Positions 3,068-52,247 of a DNA stretch of 64,000 bases are shown in pieces (positions within the stretch are counted from its first letter, which is position 1; every line of letters begins with the position of its first letter). Location: positions 2,032 to 66,031 of the forward strand of contig JBAZXV010000006.1 in NCBI GenBank assembly GCA_041659685.1, in the 5' to 3' direction. A program made the translations under genes and the position numbers. Under the pieces are notes generated by a model. That model worked only from the letters and a program-made list of their open reading frames with translations, was not told the origin of the DNA and did not search any database. This stretch comes from Parcubacteria group bacterium (GTDB taxonomy: Bacteria > Patescibacteriota > Minisyncoccia > Moranbacterales > UBA11712).

Positions 3068-3409
3068 TTGATTAATGTTTAGGTTAACAATTATACTGCT
3101 AAGGAAGAATATAACATAAATGGAGTTTTAGCAAGGGGCGATCGAAGAAAACAGCTTATATCAGCAGATAATAAGGATTTTAGGAGGATAATATCGAACT
3201 CGTTGTCCTTCCGATGAAAGTGATAAATCGGCGGCCTGATAAGGTTGATATTTTATCTCCGCCGTGCTATTATTCCTTATGCAATGAGCTATAGGCTTTA
3301 TTTTTTATGTCCGGCGGCGATTTCTTCAGAGCTTCGGTCGCCGGAAGTTTAAGTTTTAATTCCAAGGTCGCCGATTTATTATTTATAGAAAGGCGAACTG
3401 ATATCAGGT

Positions 3410-4632: not shown

Positions 4633-7065
4633 ATGGAAATAGGGTACATAAAACCAAGAGAAATAACGAAAGAGATGAAAGAGTCTTATCTCGCTTACGC
4701 GATGAGTGTTATCGTATCGAGAGCTCTTCCGGATGTTCGTGACGGGATGAAACCGGTCCATCGCCGGATTCTTTATGCCATGCGCGGGTTGGGTCTAACC
4801 CATGCGGCGAAATACAGAAAGTCGGCTACGGTAGTCGGAGAAGTACTCGGAAAATACCATCCGCACGGAGATTCTGCTGTTTACGACTCTATGGTGAGAC
4901 TCGCGCAGGATTTTTCCATGCGCTACCCTCTTGTCGACGGACAAGGGAACTTCGGATCAATGGATGGAGACAGCGCGGCGGCGATGCGTTATACGGAAGC
5001 CAAGCTTATGCCTCTGGCTGAAGAAATGATGGCCGATATTGAAAAGGATACGGTCGATTTTATACCCAACTATGATGCGTCAAGAGAGGAGCCCTCTGTT
5101 CTCCCGACCAAAGTTCCCCAGCTCCTTCTTAATGGTACGATGGGAATCGCAGTCGGAATGGCGACAAATATTCCTCCCCATAACCTGGGAGAATTGGTTG
5201 ACGGCCTTATCCATATTATTGAAAATCCGGATTGTGAGGTAAAAGATCTGATGAATTTCGTAAAGGGGCCCGATTTTCCGACCGGAGGATCGATTTTCAA
5301 TCAAAATGACATAAACCAGGCATATCTTACGGGGCGGGGCGGGATAGTTACGCGAGCCGAGACTGAAATTATGGAAACCAAAAACGGCCAATTCCAGATT
5401 ATCGTAACCGAGATGACCTATGCGTCAAACAAAGCAACGACCATATCAAAGATCGCCGAACTCGTGAAAACGGGAAAGATTGAGGGAATCAGAGACATTC
5501 GGGACGAATCAGATAAAGACGGAGTAAGGATTGTCATTGAACTCAAGAAGGAAGCTTTTCCAAAAAAGGTCCTTAATAAGCTTTACAGCCTTACCGATCT
5601 TCAAAAATCGTTTCATGTGAATATGCTGGCGCTTGTGGACGGAATTGAACCGAAGATTTTAAATCTCAAGGCAATATTGGAGCATTTCATCAACCACAGG
5701 CGTGTGGTTGTTACCCGCCGGACAAAATTCGATCTTCAGCGGGCCAAGGATCGCGCGCACATACTTGAAGGACTCAAAAAGGCGCTTGACCATATCGATG
5801 CCGTGATTAGCACAATAAGAAAATCACCCGACAAGGAGGCAGCCCATTCAAACCTTATGAAAAAGTTCAAGCTTTCCGATAAGCAGGCAGCCGCTATTTT
5901 GGAAATGAGGCTTCAGACGCTTGCCGGGCTTGAAAGAAAGAAAATAGAAGATGAATTGAAGGAAAAAAGAGGGTTCATAAAAGAACTCGAAGATCTTCTG
6001 AAGAGTCCCAGAAAGATTTTGGGCGTCGTGAAGAAAGAGCTTACGGAACTCAAGGAGAAATACGGAGATGAGAGAAAAACGCGCGTCGTGAAATCGGCCG
6101 TGGGCGAGTTTAAACAGGAGGATCTTATTCCCAATGAGGAGACAATCATCGTTCTTACGGAAGATGATTACATCAAACGCATGCCTCCTTCGTTTTACCG
6201 TGTTCAAAAAAGAGGCGGAAAAGGCGTGATCGGAGCGGCAACCAAAGAAGGAGATACGATTGATCGGGTGGTGACCGCCATGACTCATGACAGTCTTTTC
6301 TTTTTTACAAACACCGGCAAGGTGTTCCAATCCATGGCCTATGAAATTCCCGTTTCGTCGCGAATTGCCAAGGGTCAAGCCATTGTGAACTTTCTCCAGA
6401 TTGCGCAAGGCGAAAAAATTACCGCCATTATTTCAATCAGCAAAGACAGCCAGGCAAAATACCTGTTTATGACCACCAGACTGGGAACAGTAAAAAAATC
6501 AGCCATTTCTGATTTTGCCAAAGTCCGGCGTTCCGGCCTTATTGCTTTAAATCTGGCAAAGGATGATGAGCTTCGATGGATTGCGCCTATAGCGGGGAAG
6601 GATGAAATAATAATAACAACGGCTTCCGGTCAGGCTATTCACTTCAAGGAAACGGACGTTCGTCCGATGGGACGCGGGGCGGCTGGAGTACGCGGAATCA
6701 AACTAAAAAAAGATGATCTGGTAGTCGGAATGGATCCTGTTTTCAAGGAACAAAAGGGAAATCAACTGCTCGTTCTTACTGAGAACGGATTTGGGAAAAG
6801 AACAGACTTAAAAAGCTATAAAATTCAGCGGCGGGGCGGCTCAGGGATTAAAACCGCAAAGGTAACACCTAAGACGGGAAAACTGGTTTCAGCCCACGTA
6901 GTCAACACAGACGGACTTGAGGCGGATCTGATTGCAAGTTCCGCTAAAGGCCAGATAATCCGAACACCCCTAAAAACCATTTCTGTTTTAGGAAGAGCTA
7001 CGCAGGGGGTGCGCGTAATGAGGTTTAATCAAGACGACAAAATTGCGGCCACGACGGTTCTCTAG
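4633..7065 (+). CDS. gyrA: DNA gyrase subunit A
   Basis: 810 aa; N-terminal signature [28 protein letters not shown] with the active-site Tyr region; C-terminal beta-pinwheel repeats. Confidence 0.93.
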
Positions 7066-15173: not shown

Positions 15174-15257
15174 GCCGTGGTGCCGGAATCGGTAGACGGG
15201 CCAGCTTGAGGGGCTGGTGTCCATAAGGACGTGGGAGTTCGAGTCTCCCCCACGGCA
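15174..15257 (+). tRNA. tRNA-Leu (anticodon GAG)
   Basis: Acceptor GCCGTGG/CCACGGC; anticodon stem CCAGC/GCTGG with loop TTGAGGG; long variable arm; T-loop TTCGAGT. Confidence 0.8.
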
Positions 15258-15259
15258 CC

Positions 15260-15333
15260 TCGAACGGGAAAGGGGTCGGGAAAACGGGAGTTTCCCCGTG
15301 GCGGAAGAATTGAAACCGAGGGGTTTCAAAGAG
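15260..15333 (+). repeat. tRNA-associated ~74-bp repeat, copy 1 (TCGAACGGGAAAGGGGTCGGGAAAACGGGAGTTTCCCCGTGGCGGAAGAATTGAAACCGAGGGGTTTCAAAGAG)
   Basis: Starts 2 nt after the tRNA-Leu discriminator; contains an 8-bp hairpin TTGAAACC-GAGG-GGTTTCAA. It is followed at 15351-15370 by a duplicated 3' fragment of tRNA-Leu (GAGAGTCTCCCCCACGGCAC). Confidence 0.85.
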
Positions 15334-15371
15334 GCGTGAAGCGACGAAGTGAGAGTCTCCCCCACGGCACC

Positions 15372-15405
15372 TCGAACGGGAAAGGGGTCGGGAAAACGGG
15401 AGTTT
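15372..15405 (+). repeat. tRNA-associated repeat, truncated copy 2
   Basis: Identical first ~33 nt (TCGAACGGGAAAGGGGTCGGGAAAACGGGAGTT), then diverges; follows the duplicated tRNA-Leu 3' fragment. Confidence 0.7.
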
Positions 15406-15483
15406 TACCTCGGAGAAAGGTATCTGAAAGGGAATATTGATAACAATATTTATTTTTTTGGACAGTATTTTGAATTAATAAGC

Positions 15484-15557
15484 GGGCGCGTAGCTCAGTT
15501 GGTTAGAGCATCTGTCTTACAAACAGAGGGTCAGAGGTTCGATTCCTCTCGCGCCCA
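15484..15557 (+). tRNA. tRNA-Val (anticodon UAC)
   Basis: GGGCGCGTAGCTCAGTTGGTTAGAGC...; anticodon stem TCTGT/ACAGA with loop CTTACAA; T-arm GGTTCGATTCC; acceptor 3' CGCGCCC-A. Confidence 0.85.
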
Positions 15558-15558
15558 C

Positions 15559-15632
15559 TCGAACGGGAAAGGGGTCGGGAAAACGGGAGTTTCCCCGTGG
15601 CGGAAGAATTGAAACCGAGGGGTTTCAAAGAG
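15559..15632 (+). repeat. tRNA-associated ~74-bp repeat, copy 3
   Basis: Identical to copy 1; followed at 15633-15663 by a duplicated 3' fragment of tRNA-Val (CGAGGTTCGATTCCTCTCGCGCCCAC). Confidence 0.85.
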
Positions 15633-15666
15633 CGCAGCGAGGTTCGATTCCTCTCGCGCCCACATT

Positions 15667-15705
15667 GCCGGGCTAGCTCAGTCCCGCCGGGGGCGGGCAG
15701 GGTCC
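15667..15705 (+). pseudogene. tRNA-like chimera: 5' acceptor/D-arm of tRNA-Phe fused to a CCCGCC...GGCGGGCAGGGTCC GC-hairpin module
   Basis: GCCGGGCTAGCTCAGT is identical to the tRNA-Phe 5' end, then CCCGCCGGGGGCGGGCAGGGTCC. No anticodon arm or T-arm. A related module occurs at 34967-35025. Confidence 0.5.
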
Positions 15706-15753
15706 GAGCAGAGGACTTGAGTTTAAAGTAAAATTAACATCCGAATAATTCTA

Positions 15754-15825
15754 GCCGGGCTAGCTCAGTGGTAGAGCAGAAGACTGAAAATCTTTGTGTG
15801 CCCAGTTCGATTCTGGGGCCCGGCA
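15754..15825 (+). tRNA. tRNA-Phe (anticodon GAA)
   Basis: GCCGGGCTAGCTCAGTGGTAGAGC; anticodon stem GAAGA/TCTTT with loop CTGAAAA; T-arm CCCAGTTCGATTCTGGG; discriminator A. Confidence 0.85.
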
Positions 15826-15840
15826 CAGTTAATGTAATCT

Positions 15841-15912
15841 GCGGGCGTCGTATAGTGGCCATTACACGGCCTTGCCAAGGCTGAAACGGCGGTTCGATTC
15901 CGCTCGCCCGCT
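15841..15912 (+). tRNA. tRNA-Gly (anticodon GCC)
   Basis: Acceptor GCGGGCG/CGCCCGC with discriminator U; anticodon stem CGGCC/GGCTG with loop TTGCCAA; T-loop TTCGATT. Confidence 0.8.
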
Positions 15913-50247: not shown

Positions 50248-50318
50248 CGGGCTGTCGTATACCGGTAGTACGCATGCTTTGGGAGCATGTCGACTGGGTT
50301 CAATTCCCAGCAGCCCGA
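50248..50318 (+). tRNA. tRNA-Pro (anticodon UGG)
   Basis: Acceptor CGGGCTG/CAGCCCG; anticodon stem CATGC/GCATG with loop TTTGGGA; T-arm CTGGGTTCAATTCCCAG. Confidence 0.75.
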
Positions 50319-50320
50319 AA

Positions 50321-50393
50321 TCGAACGGGAAAGGGGTCGGGGAAACGGGAGTTTCTCCGGGGTGGAAGTATTGAAACCGAAAGGTTTCAAGGA
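50321..50393 (+). repeat. tRNA-associated ~74-bp repeat, copy 4 (variant TCGAACGGGAAAGGGGTCGGGGAAACGGGAGTTTCTCCGGGGTGGAAGTATTGAAACCGAAAGGTTTCAAGGA)
   Basis: Begins 2 nt after tRNA-Pro; hairpin stem TTGAAACC/GGTTTCAA is preserved with loop GAAA. Followed by hairpin CCGCCAGATGGCGG and a duplicated tRNA-Pro 3' fragment (ATTCCCAGCAGCCCGAAA, 50418-50436). Confidence 0.85.
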
Positions 50394-50471
50394 TCCGCCA
50401 GATGGCGGAAACGTGAAATTCCCAGCAGCCCGAAATAAGAAGAAATAGTAAATAATAAGAGTATTCGCGCT

Positions 50472-50816
50472 ATGATCGAAGATGGATCAGGCTTTGAGAA
50501 CAAGGATATCGGTTACAGAGCGGAAATCAGGCTTAGATTTGTGAAAGAGCTTGCTTGGAAGCTTCAATCGGCTAAAATTTGTTTTGATGCGTTAGAGCGA
50601 AAACCGCACGATGAATCACTGAGAGCGGATCTTGAAAACCGCAGAAAAGAATTTGCGGAGGCCGTCGATAGGTTCATTGAGGAAGAGCGCAGCCGCCCGA
50701 CTGTCAAGATAAACGCGGCATCCCTTTCGAAGCTGAAGGAATACTGCGAATTCAGCTGGGAAGAGGGAGAACGTCTTAAGGAATTAATGAGGAATGTTTC
50801 CGAGATGGCAAATTGA
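50472..50816 (+). CDS. Hypothetical protein
   Basis: 114 aa helical protein located between two tRNA-repeat units. Confidence 0.35.
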   Translation: MIEDGSGFENKDIGYRAEIRLRFVKELAWKLQSAKICFDALERKPHDESLRADLENRRKEFAEAVDRFIEEERSRPTVKINAASLSKLKEYCEFSWEEGERLKELMRNVSEMAN

Positions 50817-50874: not shown

Positions 50875-50946
50875 GCGGGTGTTGTATAATGGCTATTACA
50901 TCAGGTTTCCAACCTGAGGACGAGGGTTCGATTCCCTTCACCCGCT
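50875..50946 (+). tRNA. tRNA-Gly (anticodon UCC)
   Basis: Acceptor GCGGGTG/CACCCGC with discriminator U; anticodon stem TCAGG/CCTGA with loop TTTCCAA; T-loop TTCGATT. Confidence 0.8.
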
Positions 50947-50947
50947 C

Positions 50948-50988
50948 ACTGAAACGAAAAATCTCCTTAAGGGGATTTTTTGTTTTGC
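50948..50988 (+). terminator. Rho-independent terminator after tRNA-Gly (ATCTCCTTAAGGGGATTTTTTG)
   Basis: Hairpin plus T-run. A 34-nt segment including it (50946-50979) is repeated at 52321-52354. Confidence 0.65.
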
Positions 50989-51006
50989 TGAATATGAGGG
51001 TGGGAA

Positions 51007-51080
51007 TCGAACGGGAAAGGGGCCGGGGAAACGGGAGTTTCTCCGGGGTGGAAGTATTGAAACCGAAAAGTTTCAAGGAG
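51007..51080 (+). repeat. tRNA-associated ~74-bp repeat, copy 5
   Basis: TCGAACGGGAAAGGGGCCGGGGAAACGGGAGTTTCTCCGGGGTGGAAGTATTGAAACCGAAAAGTTTCAAGGAG; followed by hairpin GCGAAGCGACGTTCGCTTC and a duplicated tRNA-Gly 3' fragment (CCCTTCACCCGCTCAG, 51097-51113). Confidence 0.85.
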
Positions 51081-51356
51081 CGAAGCGACGTTCGCTTCCC
51101 TTCACCCGCTCAGTTTTCGAAAAATTCAAATCAAGGCTTTCACAAAACTTTTTCCAGTTCTGACCAAAAAATTATTTTCACAAAAATTGGCTTGCTTGAT
51201 CCCTTTTTTGTGTGAATTTTCTTCATATTTAAGGCAAAATATCTCCTCAAAAACTTGGTTCTAGCTGTGTGCCCTTGCTTCTGTCGAACTTACGGAAGCA
51301 CGACTTGACAAAAATAGTGAATAGAGTATGATAATAGTATAATATTCACTAAAAAT

Positions 51357-52247
51357 ATGCCAGTGACTCGTCCTATCAAAAACCACATTCAGGCCTTGAA
51401 AAAACAGTATGATATCCTCAAAAAAGGCAAAGATTCGCTTTTGAATTTGATCGACCAGACCGAAATTCCGGAAAGCGTCTACAATTCAAATGCTATCGAA
51501 AATTCAACTTTGACATTCAAAGAGACGGAGAAAATACTTTTGGAGATGGAAATGTCTCGCGATGTCAGTGTCAGGGAAGTATACGAAGCCAAAAATCTGG
51601 CTCGCGTCATGGATTACATTAAGAAAAAGTCGGAAGAATCGGAAATCAATAGGGAGCTGATTCTTCTGCTTCATCAAATGCTTATCGGTGGCATTGATGA
51701 TAATATTTCCGGACGGTTCAGAAATACAGGCGAGTATGTTCGAGTGGGAACACATATCGCGCCGCCTCCAGAAAAAGTGAGCAGTATGATTGCGGTGATA
51801 ATAAATCAATATGTGAGTGACAAGGAAAAATATTTTCTCGATAAAATTTCCCTATTTCACCTTGATTTTGAAACTGTCCATCCGTTTTGTGACGGCAATG
51901 GCCGAATTGGCAGAGCGCTGATGTGCTATCAGCTGGTTCAATTAGGCTATCCGCCGATAATTATCCGTGATAAAGAAAAAGGAAATTACTATAATGCTTT
52001 TGGCGAGTACAGATTCAAAAAGAATACCAAGCCAATGGAAAAAATAGTTGCTCTTTCTGTGATGGAATCTCTGCACAAACGCATAGCCTATCTTTCCGGA
52101 GAAGAAATCATTACCTTGTCCGATTATGCTAAAATAAAAAACAAAAAAGCGCCAGCCTTGTTCAACGCGGCGAAGCGCCAAAACATTCCTGCTTTTCGGG
52201 AAAGGGGAGTTTGGAAAATCAGTTCCGATTGGAAAGATAGCAAATAA
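51357..52247 (+). CDS. Fic/DOC-family protein (putative AMPylase or related nucleotidyl/phosphocholine transferase)
   Basis: 296 aa; Fic active-site motif HPFCDGNGRIGRALM. Confidence 0.85.
   Translation: MPVTRPIKNHIQALKKQYDILKKGKDSLLNLIDQTEIPESVYNSNAIENSTLTFKETEKILLEMEMSRDVSVREVYEAKNLARVMDYIKKKSEESEINRELILLLHQMLIGGIDDNISGRFRNTGEYVRVGTHIAPPPEKVSSMIAVIINQYVSDKEKYFLDKISLFHLDFETVHPFCDGNGRIGRALMCYQLVQLGYPPIIIRDKEKGNYYNAFGEYRFKKNTKPMEKIVALSVMESLHKRIAYLSGEEIITLSDYAKIKNKKAPALFNAAKRQNIPAFRERGVWKISSDWKDSK

What the first reader, a model, noticed from the sequence alone, without database searches (positions are those of the whole stretch)
15174..15912. tRNA-associated ~74-bp structured repeat, each copy followed by a duplicated tRNA 3'-end fragment
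In the tRNA cluster (Leu-GAG, Val, Phe, Gly-GCC) a 74-bp element (TCGAACGGGAAAGGGGTCGGGAAAACGGGAGTTTCCCCGTGGCGGAAGAATTGAAACCGAGGGGTTTCAAAGAG) starts 2 nt after the discriminator of tRNA-Leu and again after tRNA-Val. Each time it is followed by an approximately 20-31 nt copy of the 3' end of that same tRNA (GAGAGTCTCCCCCACGGCAC at 15351-15370; CGAGGTTCGATTCCTCTCGCGCCCAC at 15633-15663). A truncated third copy follows. This is exactly the attL/attR-like signature expected if a tiny element inserted site-specifically into the 3' end of tRNA genes and duplicated the target. The element has no coding capacity, so any mobilisation would require a trans-acting integrase. Alternatively it could be a structured RNA co-transcribed with the tRNAs (it contains a perfectly conserved 8-bp hairpin).
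Basis: seen in the sequence. Interest (0 to 1): 0.8.

Follow-up and report, generated by a model that had tools for sequence, protein, structure and literature searches.

The report
tRNA-tail structured insertion element family
The 74-bp repeat is the conserved core of a previously unannotated family of tiny non-coding elements, found across the Patescibacteria (CPR). They insert at the 3' end of tRNA genes, copy that end so the tRNA stays intact, and fold into a conserved cloverleaf-like single-stranded structure.

Summary
The window holds five same-strand copies of the element; none are expected by chance. Four follow a tRNA (Leu-GAG, Val, Pro-TGG, Gly-TCC), and each of those is followed by an exact 17-25 nt copy of that tRNA's 3' end.

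It is one sample of a CPR-wide family: 109 genome loci and at least 120 metagenome loci. About 90% have a same-strand tRNA or tmRNA within 300 nt upstream, and none has only an opposite-strand one.

A full unit reads: tRNA, spacer with a terminator-like hairpin, inverted copy of tRNA positions ~53-73, three-hairpin core, T-loop-like hexamer, direct copy of tRNA ~59-73. The core helices covary. G.U outnumbers A.C 58 to 16, and tandem G.A pairs show that the tRNA-sense strand is the one that folds.

Relatives of this genome have empty sites for the Val, Pro and Gly copies. The DNA after the Gly copy aligns by eye with the relative's flank. Units of different subfamilies stack in tandem at one tRNA.

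I found no linked recombinase, no Rfam family, and no phage or plasmid match.

Best reading (about 0.5): a protein-less, structured selfish insertion element that targets the T-loop and 3' end of tRNA genes. The catalyst is unknown. Main rival (about 0.25): a resident tRNA-linked non-coding RNA.

The parts
15174..15257 (+). tRNA-Leu(GAG), intact. Host gene of copy E1.
   Evidence: ARAGORN; Rfam tRNA, 50.4 bits.
15260..15333 (+). E1 core, 74 nt. It runs: TCGAAC, then the purine-rich joining strand GGGAAAGGGGTC, then hairpin P_a, then GTGGCGGAAG, then hairpin P_b.
   Evidence: Identical to 15559-15632. HMM E = 1e-19; covariance model 88.5 bits.
15334..15352 (+). E1 variable P_c / linker, followed by the start of the T-loop-like hexamer GTGAGA (15349-15354).
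   Evidence: Read from the sequence. The GTGAGA variant is shared by about half of the family.
15353..15371 (+). Displaced direct copy (D2) of the tRNA-Leu 3' end, GAGTCTCCCCCACGGCACC.
   Evidence: Exact copy of 15241-15259. The same 19-mer survives in relative L111 beside a replaced tRNA-Leu.
15372..15483 (+). E2, an older decayed copy. Its first 34 nt are intact and the rest is diverged. It fills the Leu-Val spacer.
   Evidence: HMM positions 1-48, E = 6e-11; covariance model 38 bits. Ortholog of the intact core-only element at L116 3072-3158.
15484..15557 (+). tRNA-Val(TAC), intact. Host gene of E_Val.
15559..15638 (+). E_Val core (15559-15632) plus the 6-nt linker CGCAGC.
   Evidence: An orthologous abutting copy is present in L111. 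The site is empty in L116.
15639..15663 (+). Displaced direct copy (D2) of the tRNA-Val 3' end (25 nt), followed by ATT and the start of tRNA-Phe. That order is the ancestral Val-Phe junction.
   Evidence: Exact copy of 15534-15558. L116 reads CGCGCCCAC|ATTC|GCCGGGC with no element.
50248..50318 (+). tRNA-Pro(TGG), intact. Host gene of E_Pro.
50321..50416 (+). E_Pro: core (50321-50392), then the P_c hairpin TCCGCCAGATGGCGGA, then the T-loop-like GTGAAA.
   Evidence: Folding z-score -4.7. Absent from the syntenic loci L113 and L114.
50417..50436 (+). Displaced direct copy (D2) of the tRNA-Pro 3' end, AATTCCCAGCAGCCCGAAAT.
   Evidence: Exact copy of 50302-50321.
50875..50946 (+). tRNA-Gly(TCC), intact. 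Host gene of E_Gly.
50949..50995 (+). Element-borne spacer with a terminator-like hairpin and T-run (ATCTCCTTAAGGGGATTTTTT).
   Evidence: Read from the sequence. No counterpart in L113, where the tRNA is followed by sequence that aligns by eye with the window flank after D2.
50996..51006 (+). Inverted arm (I), GAGGGTGGGAA. It is an imperfect reverse complement of the T-loop 59-60, the T-stem 3' strand and part of the acceptor 3' strand of tRNA-Gly.
   Evidence: Family rule: the 2 nt before TCGAAC equal the reverse complement of T-loop positions 59-60 in 76/86 and 69/84 loci, against about 20 expected by permutation.
51007..51095 (+). E_Gly: core, then the GCGAAGC mini-hairpin, then the T-loop-like GTTCGC.
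   Evidence: covariance model 107.9 bits. The minimum-free-energy fold is a closing stem plus three hairpins.
51096..51112 (+). Displaced direct copy (D2) of the tRNA-Gly 3' end, TTCCCTTCACCCGCTCA, continuous with the flank that resembles the relative's.
   Evidence: Exact copy of 50932-50948. Flank similarity to L113 judged by eye.

Best explanation
The repeat is the core of a small (about 100-250 bp), protein-less, structured selfish insertion element specialised on the T-loop and 3' end of tRNA and tmRNA genes in Patescibacteria.

**Anatomy of an inserted unit.** It supplies, in order:
1. a replacement copy of the tRNA's 3' end, so the tRNA stays intact;
2. usually its own terminator-like spacer;
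3. an inverted copy of tRNA positions ~53-73;
4. a conserved three-hairpin core;
5. a T-loop-like hexamer.

The hexamer joins the original tRNA 3' end, which is now displaced downstream. On the tRNA-sense strand the inverted and direct tRNA copies pair. The core's own ends also pair: TCGAAC, which is the reverse complement of G53-A58, pairs with GTTCGA or GTGAGA. The result is a long closing stem that reproduces the tRNA gene's T-loop-to-acceptor duplex, capping a cloverleaf-like junction.

**Shown.** The anatomy; insertion with occupied and empty sites; sense-strand structural selection; tandem stacking of units; absence of linked enzymes.

**Inferred.**
- Spread between genomes needs no dedicated enzyme. 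The unit is bracketed by tRNA sequence on both sides, so an occupied allele taken up by these naturally competent bacteria could convert an empty allele by recombination inside the tRNA gene.
- Alternatively, a recombinase acting in trans uses the folded sense strand as a mimic of the target site. This is the logic of CTXphi attP and integron attC sites.
- Retargeting to other tRNAs would use the universal T-loop sequence carried at both ends of the core.
- When transcribed with the tRNA, the minihelix-like stem probably lets RNase P and RNase Z excise the element, which would keep the cost to the host low.
For: **Anatomy.**
- Five copies in the window, none expected by chance.
- The family appears in 109 genome loci across many CPR lineages and at least 120 metagenome loci.
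- A same-strand tRNA or tmRNA lies within 300 nt upstream in 96/105 and 94/107 copies that are not at a locus edge. No copy has only an opposite-strand tRNA. The genome set covers 37 anticodon species plus tmRNA.
- An exact tRNA 3'-end copy of 11 nt or more follows the core in 72 genome-set units and in 61/84 metagenome units.
- The inverted arm tracks the tRNA's own T-loop positions 59-60 in 76/86 and 69/84 loci, against about 20 by permutation.

**Insertion and turnover.**
- Empty sites in syntenic relatives: Val (L116); Pro and Gly (L113 and L114).
- The flank after the displaced Gly copy resembles the relative's post-tRNA flank by eye, so the spacer, inverted arm and core look like inserted DNA.
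- Tandem units of different subfamilies sit at one tRNA (L079, L098, L020), and in the same order at two tRNAs of one assembly.
- Some arms match an older tRNA allele rather than the current one (L111 Leu, L069 Thr, L020).
- Some adjacent copies within one genome are near-identical (window pairs 0.97 and 0.95 core identity).

**Structure.**
- P_a is 98.5% paired and P_b 95.7% paired, with 6 and 7 covarying pairs. Zero of 500 shuffles reach the observed covariation score, and all slid-partner controls are far lower.
- In P_a, P_b and the T-loop-like helix, G.U = 58 against A.C = 16, with 152 G.A/A.G cells in the T-loop-like helix.
- Typical units fold as a closing stem plus three hairpins, with z-scores of -3.4 to -4.3.

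**Nothing else explains it.**
- No recurrent integrase or transposase near 225 loci.
- No Rfam family.
- No match in viral contigs, phage records or plasmid records.
Against: - No catalyst, excised form or autonomous relative was found.
- How both arms come to match each new tRNA is unexplained.
- Three of the four full window copies (Leu, Val, Pro), and a few elsewhere, lack the spacer and the inverted arm. They cannot form the long closing stem, yet the Val copy is retained in two diverged genomes (window and L111).
- L116 has a well-conserved core with no arms at all, as a plain tRNA-tRNA spacer. That looks more like a retained RNA than a parasite.
- Direct repeats of about 20 nt should delete such an insert easily, so long retention hints at a function.
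- Empty sites alone cannot distinguish gain from precise loss.
- The three relatives have RNase Y 85-93% identical to the window's (L19 about 71-76%); they are not strains of the same species.
- The Gly flank homology was judged by eye, not by an alignment.
Confidence: 0.5

Rival explanations
1. A resident, functional tRNA-linked non-coding RNA. The core is a conserved small RNA made from tRNA operon transcripts. Its ends are defined by tRNA-processing enzymes: RNase Z after the upstream tRNA, and RNase P/Z acting on a flanking tRNA or on the tRNA-minihelix-like closing stem. The tRNA-derived arms would come from local duplication and exist only to recruit processing, CCA addition, or factors that inspect the acceptor stem (for example as a decoy). 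Copy turnover would be ordinary gene duplication and loss plus gene conversion.
For: - Strong sense-strand covariation, GNRA-type loops, G.U tolerance and tandem G.A pairs.
- The core sequence is nearly invariant across the phylum.
- It is always co-oriented with the tRNA and sometimes lies inside a tRNA operon (window Leu-E-Val-E-Phe-Gly).
- The core-only copy flanked by two tRNAs in L116 would be cut out precisely by RNase Z and RNase P.
- The Val copy is retained in both the window and L111 although the flanks have diverged.
- The inverted arm stops at the tRNA's acceptor end, which is where RNase P would cut.
Against: - Distribution is patchy: 4 of 14 tRNAs in this window, and different tRNAs in different genomes.
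- Close relatives have empty sites.
- Different subfamilies stack in tandem at one tRNA.
- Decayed copies exist (window E2, L027, L038).
- A terminator-like hairpin and no promoter-like site lie directly upstream of typical copies.
- No conserved partner gene was found.
Confidence: 0.25
2. A guide RNA for an unlinked RNA-guided nuclease or recombinase, analogous to a TnpB omega-RNA or an IS110 bridge RNA. The conserved scaffold would be followed by a 15-20 nt flank-derived guide (the tRNA 3' copy). The T-loop would serve as the adjacent motif. The inverted arm would address the other DNA strand.
For: - The layout is a conserved scaffold followed by a variable target-matching segment of 11-25 nt, with the junction at a motif present in every tRNA gene.
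- The two arms match opposite strands of the same target.
Against: - No tnpB, iscB, cas or IS110-type gene recurs within 3-4 kb of 225 loci.
- The supposed guide is base-paired with the inverted arm rather than free.
- No Rfam omega-RNA or bridge-RNA-like hit.
Confidence: 0.08
3. Scars of larger integrase-bearing islands or prophages that once sat in these tRNA genes. After internal deletion, only the attL-proximal and attR-proximal ends remain.
For: - Direct repeats of the tRNA 3' end flanking an insert are the classical att signature.
- tmRNA is also a target (L038).
- Accessory genes (an ORFan and a Fic-domain gene) lie near the Pro and Gly copies.
Against: - More than 200 copies share the same compact architecture and boundaries, and none has cargo between the core and the displaced tRNA copy.
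- The truncated copies break at different points, which fits decay rather than a shared deletion junction.
- Helices covary, so the sequence is under selection as a folded unit.
- No integrase remnants.
- No match in phage, viral or plasmid collections.
Confidence: 0.05
4. Neutral tandem-duplication or slippage debris in a tRNA cluster of this one genome.
For: The Leu locus has an R-A-R-B repeat layout with 112-nt spacing. In L032 and L038 the duplicated segment includes the spacer.
Against: - The same core occurs at hundreds of unrelated tRNA loci across the phylum.
- It has covarying helices and a tRNA-specific inverted arm.
Confidence: 0.02

Closest known systems
tRNA- and tmRNA-gene-targeting integrative elements (tyrosine-integrase genomic islands and prophages)
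   Same: - They insert in the T-loop-to-3' part of a tRNA or tmRNA gene.
- The element supplies a replacement 3' end.
- The original 3' end is displaced as a direct repeat.
- Successive insertions stack in tandem at the restored site.
   Different: - Here the unit is 100-250 bp with no integrase and no cargo.
- One core family sits at 37 anticodon species.
- It carries an additional inverted copy of the target.
- Its conserved part is selected as a single-strand fold.
Folded single-stranded recombination sites: CTXphi attP(+) used by XerCD, and integron attC
   Same: - Both are strand-specific imperfect palindromes whose stem recreates a double-stranded target site.
- The integrated CTXphi junction has the same order: target copy, element, inverted site, roughly 90-nt spacer, hybrid direct site.
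   Different: - No dif-like or R/L-box motifs and no IntI or Xer dependence have been shown.
- Here the loop between the arms is a highly conserved three-hairpin junction rather than a variable spacer.
- The arms are derived from the tRNA.
MITEs and cis-mobilisable elements (non-autonomous mobile DNA)
   Same: Small, non-coding and multi-copy. Mobilisation must come from factors acting in trans or from host recombination.
   Different: - No conserved terminal inverted repeats; the arms differ with each target.
- The duplication is 11-25 nt, up to about 66 nt, and variable, not a short fixed target-site duplication.
- No autonomous parent element is known.
tRNA-like or minihelix-capped RNAs processed by RNase P/Z (tmRNA tRNA-like domain, YrlA, mascRNA)
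   Same: An acceptor-plus-T coaxial helix with a discriminator closes the RNA in typical copies, and the element lies next to tRNA genes.
   Different: - The T-loop nucleotides are base-paired rather than forming a T-loop.
- There are no D-arm or anticodon-arm analogues.
- The helix copies the neighbouring tRNA, whatever its identity.
- No Rfam match. The apparent 5' similarity to tmRNA fails against a CPR tmRNA.
TnpB omega-RNA and IS110 bridge RNA
   Same: A conserved scaffold adjoining a short segment that matches the flanking target.
   Different: No associated nuclease or recombinase gene. The target-matching segment is sequestered in a helix.
Group I introns in Patescibacteria tRNA genes (PMC13011429)
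   Same: Structured, mostly endonuclease-less RNA elements that colonise CPR tRNA genes while keeping the tRNA functional.
   Different: Those introns are about 250 nt, sit in the anticodon loop, are spliced out and match Rfam RF00028. This element lies after the tRNA, duplicates its end and matches no Rfam model.

Membership tests
tRNA/tmRNA-targeting integrative elements | Insert in the 3' part of a tRNA or tmRNA gene, flanked by a restored gene end and a displaced direct-repeat copy of that end. | tested here: met
   Empty sites.
tRNA/tmRNA-targeting integrative elements | The element encodes its own integrase next to an att site. | tested here: not met
   No recurrent recombinase within 3-4 kb of 225 loci. 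The units themselves are non-coding.
tRNA/tmRNA-targeting integrative elements | One element lineage has one fixed attP and therefore one target gene. | tested here: not met
   The same core sits at 37 anticodon species plus tmRNA (genome set), with arms that change with the target.
MITE | Terminal inverted repeats conserved among copies. | tested here: not met
   The arms are copies of each local tRNA and differ between loci.
MITE | Short target-site duplication of fixed length. | tested here: not met
   Duplications are 11-25 nt, and about 66 nt in L032.
Folded-ssDNA recombination sites (attC, CTXphi attP) | Strand-specific imperfect palindrome whose stem mimics the double-stranded target. 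| tested here: met
   The inverted arm plus TCGAAC pairs with GTTCGA/GTGAGA plus the direct copy. Sense-strand asymmetry: G.U 58 against A.C 16.
Folded-ssDNA recombination sites (attC, CTXphi attP) | Recombination by IntI or XerCD at defined motifs (R/L boxes, dif-like core). | not tested
   I made no motif search for R/L boxes or dif. Enzyme dependence cannot be addressed with these tools.
Any Rfam 15 family (tRNA, tmRNA, YrlA, introns, ribozymes, omega-RNAs) | Covariance-model match at or near the gathering score. | tested here: not met
   Only the flanking tRNAs (and a group I intron in L116) score. Nothing covers the core, even at E up to 10 in the window regions.
TnpB omega-RNA / IS110 bridge RNA | Adjacent gene for the cognate nuclease or recombinase. 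| tested here: not met
tRNA-like RNAs processed by RNase P/Z | Acceptor-plus-T coaxial helix ending at a discriminator. | tested here: inconclusive
   Present in typical copies. Absent in the window's Leu, Val and Pro copies. The T-loop is paired rather than looped. Processing cannot be tested here.

The most novel reading that the evidence does not exclude
The element is a self-targeting mobile RNA/DNA module of a new kind. Its folded sense strand, RNA or ssDNA, would use the two tRNA-derived arms to recognise both strands of a tRNA gene's T-loop-to-acceptor segment. It would direct its own insertion there using only ubiquitous host enzymes or its own catalytic core. That would make it a protein-less counterpart of bridge-RNA or attC-type recombination, and perhaps a relic of minihelix 'genomic tag' biology.
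Probability: 0.15. Interest if true: 0.95.

Novelty: new variant of a known kind. Interest (0 to 1): 0.8.

Why it matters
If this holds, a whole bacterial super-phylum carries an unannotated, highly conserved structured element tied to its tRNA genes.

- **Mobile DNA.** It would show that the 'integrate into a tRNA and restore it' strategy can be reduced to about 150 bp with no encoded enzyme. That raises the question of what catalyses insertion.
- **RNA biology.** It adds a covariation-supported cloverleaf-like motif, with a tRNA-minihelix cap, that is missing from Rfam.
- **CPR genomics.** It explains contig breaks and odd tRNA fragments near tRNA genes. The arms also preserve earlier tRNA alleles, giving markers for tRNA gene replacement and horizontal transfer.
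- **Applications.** A compact, programmable tRNA-site insertion module would be of interest if the mechanism proves to be guided by the arms.

Tried and rejected
- **tmRNA relationship.** The core start resembles the E. coli tmRNA 5' region (from memory), and Rfam gave weak tmRNA hits. A CPR tmRNA 5' end (L038) shows no similarity, so I rejected this.
- **Solitary CRISPR-like repeat.** GTTTCCCCGTGGCGGAAGAATTGAAAC looks repeat-like, but there is no array and the segment is part of covarying hairpins. Rejected.
- **Phage or plasmid origin.** No hits in viral contigs, phage records or plasmid records.
- **Linked enzyme.** I clustered ORFs within 3-4 kb of 109 and then 225 loci. Only housekeeping synteny recurs (CCA-adding enzyme, RecG, IF-2, FtsH, an ABC ATPase), plus an HTH/LAGLIDADG-like ORF at tRNA 5' ends in about 5% of loci. 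No tRNA 5' fragment lies upstream of that ORF, and it is too rare to be the general catalyst.
- **Replicative template switch.** This predicts that the spacer after the tRNA duplicates the local flank. That holds only in L032, L038 and L072; 5 of 59 loci exceed the 95th percentile of random pairs. In the window's Gly copy the spacer is foreign.
- **Own promoter.** None is detected upstream of E_Gly or the other window copies.
- **Allele lacking E1.** A metagenome search for it found nothing.
- **Closer relatives.** Identical-protein look-ups gave only a 1.4-kb contig. Two JGI contigs had no retrievable DNA.
- **Literature.** Five searches and a text search of the one relevant paper found no description of this element.
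- **Origin of the inverted arm.** I asked whether it is a copy of the tRNA's own 5' strands. Where G.U pairs discriminate (L033, L053, L059, L067, L074), it is the complement of the 3' strand (read by eye).
Full report
**1. What is in the window**

Coordinates 15174-15912 hold a tRNA operon: Leu-GAG, Val-TAC, Phe-GAA and Gly-GCC. A 74-nt sequence is identical at 15260-15333 and 15559-15632. Its 34-nt 5' half occurs five times on the + strand, at 15260, 15372, 15559, 50321 and 51007, with 0-2 mismatches. Zero occurrences are expected from shuffles.

HMM and covariance-model searches find no other copy in the 64 kb. Each full copy is followed by an exact copy of the 3' end of the tRNA just upstream:
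- Leu, 19 nt, 15353-15371
- Val, 25 nt, 15639-15663
- Pro-TGG, 20 nt, 50417-50436
- Gly-TCC, 17 nt, 51096-51112

**2. It is a phylum-wide family**

I scanned one genome per species for the 21-mer TCGAACGGGAAAGGGGNCGGG. It gave 109 loci, almost all in Patescibacteria: Saccharibacteria, Parcubacteria lineages, Berkelbacteria, Doudnabacteria and others.

| Measure | Genome set | Metagenome set |
|---|---|---|
| Non-edge copies with a same-strand tRNA or tmRNA within 300 nt upstream | 96/105 | 94/107 |
| Copies with only an opposite-strand tRNA | 0 | 0 |
| Median gap from tRNA to core | 55 nt | 55 nt |

The genome set covers 37 anticodon species and one tmRNA. An exact copy of 11 nt or more of the tRNA's T-stem 3' strand, acceptor 3' strand and discriminator follows the core in 72 genome-set units and in 61/84 metagenome units.

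Rfam 15 has no matching family, even at E up to 10 in the window regions. Viral contigs, phage records and plasmid records have no match. Five literature searches found no description.

**3. Anatomy of a full unit**

The family-typical order is:
1. the tRNA;
2. a spacer of about 45-65 nt with a terminator-like hairpin and T-run;
3. an inverted arm;
4. TCGAAC, then GGGAAAGGGGTC;
5. hairpin P_a (GGGRAAAC, loop, GTTTYCCC);
6. GTGGCGGAAG;
7. hairpin P_b;
8. a variable hairpin P_c, often the GCGAAGC mini-hairpin;
9. CGACG, then a T-loop-like hexamer (GTTCGA, GTTCGC or GTGAGA);
10. a direct copy of the tRNA 3' end.

The inverted arm is the reverse complement of the tRNA's T-loop positions 59-60, its T-stem 3' strand and part or all of its acceptor 3' strand. 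The two bases before TCGAAC equal the reverse complement of that tRNA's own positions 59-60 in 76/86 and 69/84 loci. Permutation gives about 20, with a maximum of 34. TCGAAC itself is the reverse complement of G53-A58.

Where G.U pairs in the tRNA discriminate, the arm is the complement of the 3' strand, not a copy of the tRNA's 5' strands (read by eye).

In the window only the Gly-TCC copy is typical: spacer 50949-50995 and arm 50996-51006. The Leu, Val and Pro copies abut the tRNA 1-2 nt after the discriminator and lack both spacer and arm. About 10% of family members are like this.

The switch from element-type to tRNA-type sequence lies inside the T-loop: Leu GTGA|GAGT, Pro GTGA|AATT, Gly TTCGC|TT.

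**4. A folded single strand is under selection**

Typical units fold as a long closing stem plus three hairpins, with z-scores of -3.4 to -4.3. I built a covariance model from 28 compact members and used it to align 114 copies.

| Helix | Paired | Pairs with changes on both sides |
|---|---|---|
| P_a | 98.5% | 6 |
| P_b | 95.7% | 7 of 8 |

Zero of 500 column shuffles reach the observed covariation score. All slid-partner controls are much lower: 0.266 observed against 0.077 or less (the independent MAFFT alignment agrees).

In P_a, P_b and the T-loop-like helix, G.U = 58 against A.C = 16. The GTGAGA variant puts tandem G.A/A.G pairs opposite TCGAAC, giving 152 such cells. The tRNA-sense strand is therefore the one that folds. 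Terminal loops are mostly GNRA or GNNG. This fits RNA best, but sense-strand ssDNA is not excluded, because G.T pairs, tandem G.A pairs and GCGAAGC mini-hairpins are also stable in DNA (from my own knowledge).

**5. It is inserted DNA with turnover**

Three syntenic relatives were recovered. The window is a Parcubacteria / Moranbacteria-like MAG.

| Relative | Assembly | Loci | RNase Y identity to window |
|---|---|---|---|
| A | GCA_964452975.1 | L111, L112 | 93% |
| B | GCA_030679895.1 | L113, L116 | 91% |
| C | GCA_001784675.1 | L114 | 85% |

- **Val copy.** The window and A both have an abutting copy after tRNA-Val. B has the empty site CGCGCCCAC|ATTC|GCCGGGC.
- **Pro and Gly-TCC copies.** B has tRNA-Pro and tRNA-Gly-TCC 56 nt apart with no element. 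C also has no element after its tRNA-Pro and tRNA-Gly (GCC there) at the same position. The covariance model finds nothing at E up to 1.
- **Flank.** The flank after the window's displaced Gly copy resembles B's flank after tRNA-Gly by eye. On that reading the displaced copy is the original gene end, and the spacer, inverted arm and core are inserted.
- **Leu-Val spacer.** B has a well-conserved core (81 bits) with no arms as the entire Leu-Val spacer. The window's decayed E2 (15372-15483) is its ortholog. E1 plus its displaced copy is a newer, tRNA-proximal addition.

Elsewhere, two complete units of different subfamilies stack at one tRNA (L079, L098, L020). They stand in the same order at two tRNAs of one assembly. 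Truncated distal copies follow intact proximal ones (L027, L038, probably L032).

Some arms match an earlier tRNA allele rather than the present gene (L111 Leu, L069 Thr, L020). Some adjacent copies within one genome are near-identical in the core while their arms differ: the window pairs score 0.97 and 0.95, and L071 scores 0.87. That fits local copying or gene conversion.

**6. What was not found**

No integrase, transposase, Cas, TnpB or IS110 gene recurs within 3-4 kb of 225 loci. The recurrent neighbours are housekeeping genes. One exception is an HTH/LAGLIDADG-like ORF that abuts the 5' end of tRNA genes in 11 loci.

There is no promoter-like site upstream of the window copies. A metagenome search for an allele lacking E1 found nothing.

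**7. Interpretation**

The best-supported reading is a protein-less, structured, selfish insertion element specialised on the T-loop and 3' end of tRNA and tmRNA genes.

The order tRNA copy, spacer, inverted copy, loop, hybrid direct copy is the order left by integration of a folded single-stranded site such as CTXphi attP(+). It also resembles integron attC logic (from my own knowledge). The stem formed by the two arms reproduces the target duplex.

Because tRNA sequence brackets the unit on both sides, an occupied allele could also convert an empty one by homologous recombination after DNA uptake, with no dedicated enzyme. Both routes are inferences. The catalyst, and the way both arms are made for a new tRNA, are unknown.

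The main rival is a resident functional small RNA whose ends are set by tRNA-processing enzymes. It is favoured by the extreme core conservation, by the arm-less but intact copy between two tRNAs in B, and by retention of the Val copy in two diverged genomes. It is disfavoured by the patchy distribution, the empty sites, the stacking of subfamilies, the decayed copies and the upstream terminators.

The two readings are not mutually exclusive; group I introns offer a precedent for an element that is both.

Guide-RNA, island-scar and duplication-debris readings are unlikely (see the rival explanations).

**8. Verdict**

The feature is real, widespread and unannotated.

It resembles known tRNA-targeting integrative elements in strategy. 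It fails their defining tests: an encoded integrase, a fixed attP and cargo. It also matches no RNA family. I classify it as a new variant of a known kind, with about a 15% chance that its mechanism is categorically new.

Noticed in passing
window 15667-15753: A pseudo-tRNA-Phe sits just upstream of the intact tRNA-Phe (15754). It consists of the first 16 nt of tRNA-Phe, a GC hairpin (CCCGCCGGGGGCGGG) inserted in the D-loop, a diverged D-stem/anticodon-arm remnant, and an AT-rich stretch with a promoter-like TTTAAA-16-AATAAT (15722-15749). It is also present in relative B (L116 ~3233-3330) and absent in relative A (L111). It looks like a mirror-image, 5'-side counterpart of the 3'-side element.
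   Followed up: partly
L111 1484-1718: In relative A the ancestral, window-type tRNA-Leu(GAG) is split into a 24-nt 5' fragment and a 19-nt 3' fragment. Between them lie a hairpin, a complete but different tRNA-Leu(GAG) and a decayed element-like spacer. This suggests replacement of the whole tRNA gene by an incoming cassette.
   Followed up: partly
L003 (tRNA-Gln, tRNA-Thr), L078 (tRNA-Arg), L097 (tRNA-Ile): Other nested or disrupted tRNA copies lie next to intact ones. Examples: a 5' fragment with a 45-nt D-loop hairpin, a pseudo-tRNA with a 21-nt hairpin in the T-loop, and a full tRNA-Ile inserted in the anticodon loop of an older copy.
   Followed up: no
L003, L005, L033, L069, L118, L151, L157, L173, L209, L223, L229: A family of ORFs of about 155-260 aa has an N-terminal HTH and a LAGLIDADG-like motif. 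Its stop codon abuts or overlaps the 5' end of a co-oriented tRNA gene in most of these loci. It occurs in 11 of 225 element-bearing loci. In several of them the same tRNA, or the next one, carries the element downstream. It may be a free-standing homing endonuclease associated with tRNA genes.
   Followed up: partly
L116 3354-3595: Relative B's tRNA-Phe carries a group I intron in the anticodon loop (Rfam RF00028, 87 bits). ARAGORN therefore misses the gene. This matches the phenomenon described in PMC13011429.
   Followed up: yes
window 50472-50816 and 51357-52247: A 114-aa ORFan, with no homologue among 5.8 billion clusters, lies between the displaced tRNA-Pro copy and tRNA-Gly. Relative B has only 56 nt there. 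A Fic/DOC-domain gene follows the Gly copy. This tRNA pair may be a small insertion hotspot.
   Followed up: partly
window 50300-50306 and 15540-15546, versus L113, L114, L116 and L111: The window's tRNA-Pro T-loop is TTCAATT where relatives have TTCGATT. Its tRNA-Val T-loop is TTCGATT where relatives have TTCGAGT. In each case the displaced copy shares the changed base. This suggests the duplicated or exchanged tract reaches into the T-loop.
   Followed up: no
L114 ~6470-6520: After tRNA-Gly(GCC) there is a mini hairpin: TGAGCGAGG, a GC hairpin, then CCCGCTCA. It ends in an 8-nt copy of the tRNA 3' end, preceded by its complement. It could be a core-less remnant or a minimal relative of the element.
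   Followed up: no
L004, L013, L032, L055, L060, L067, L075, L076, L085, L087: A CCA-adding enzyme gene lies within about 4 kb of the element in 10 of 109 genome loci, mostly beside tRNA-Pro(CGG) or tRNA-Arg(TCG). This is probably conserved synteny, but I did not test for a functional link.
   Followed up: no
window 15174-15257: The whole-window Rfam run at gathering threshold did not list tRNA-Leu(GAG), although the tRNA scores 50.4 bits in the local run. The cause is probably the speed filter. It is a reminder that the whole-window run can drop true matches.
   Followed up: yes
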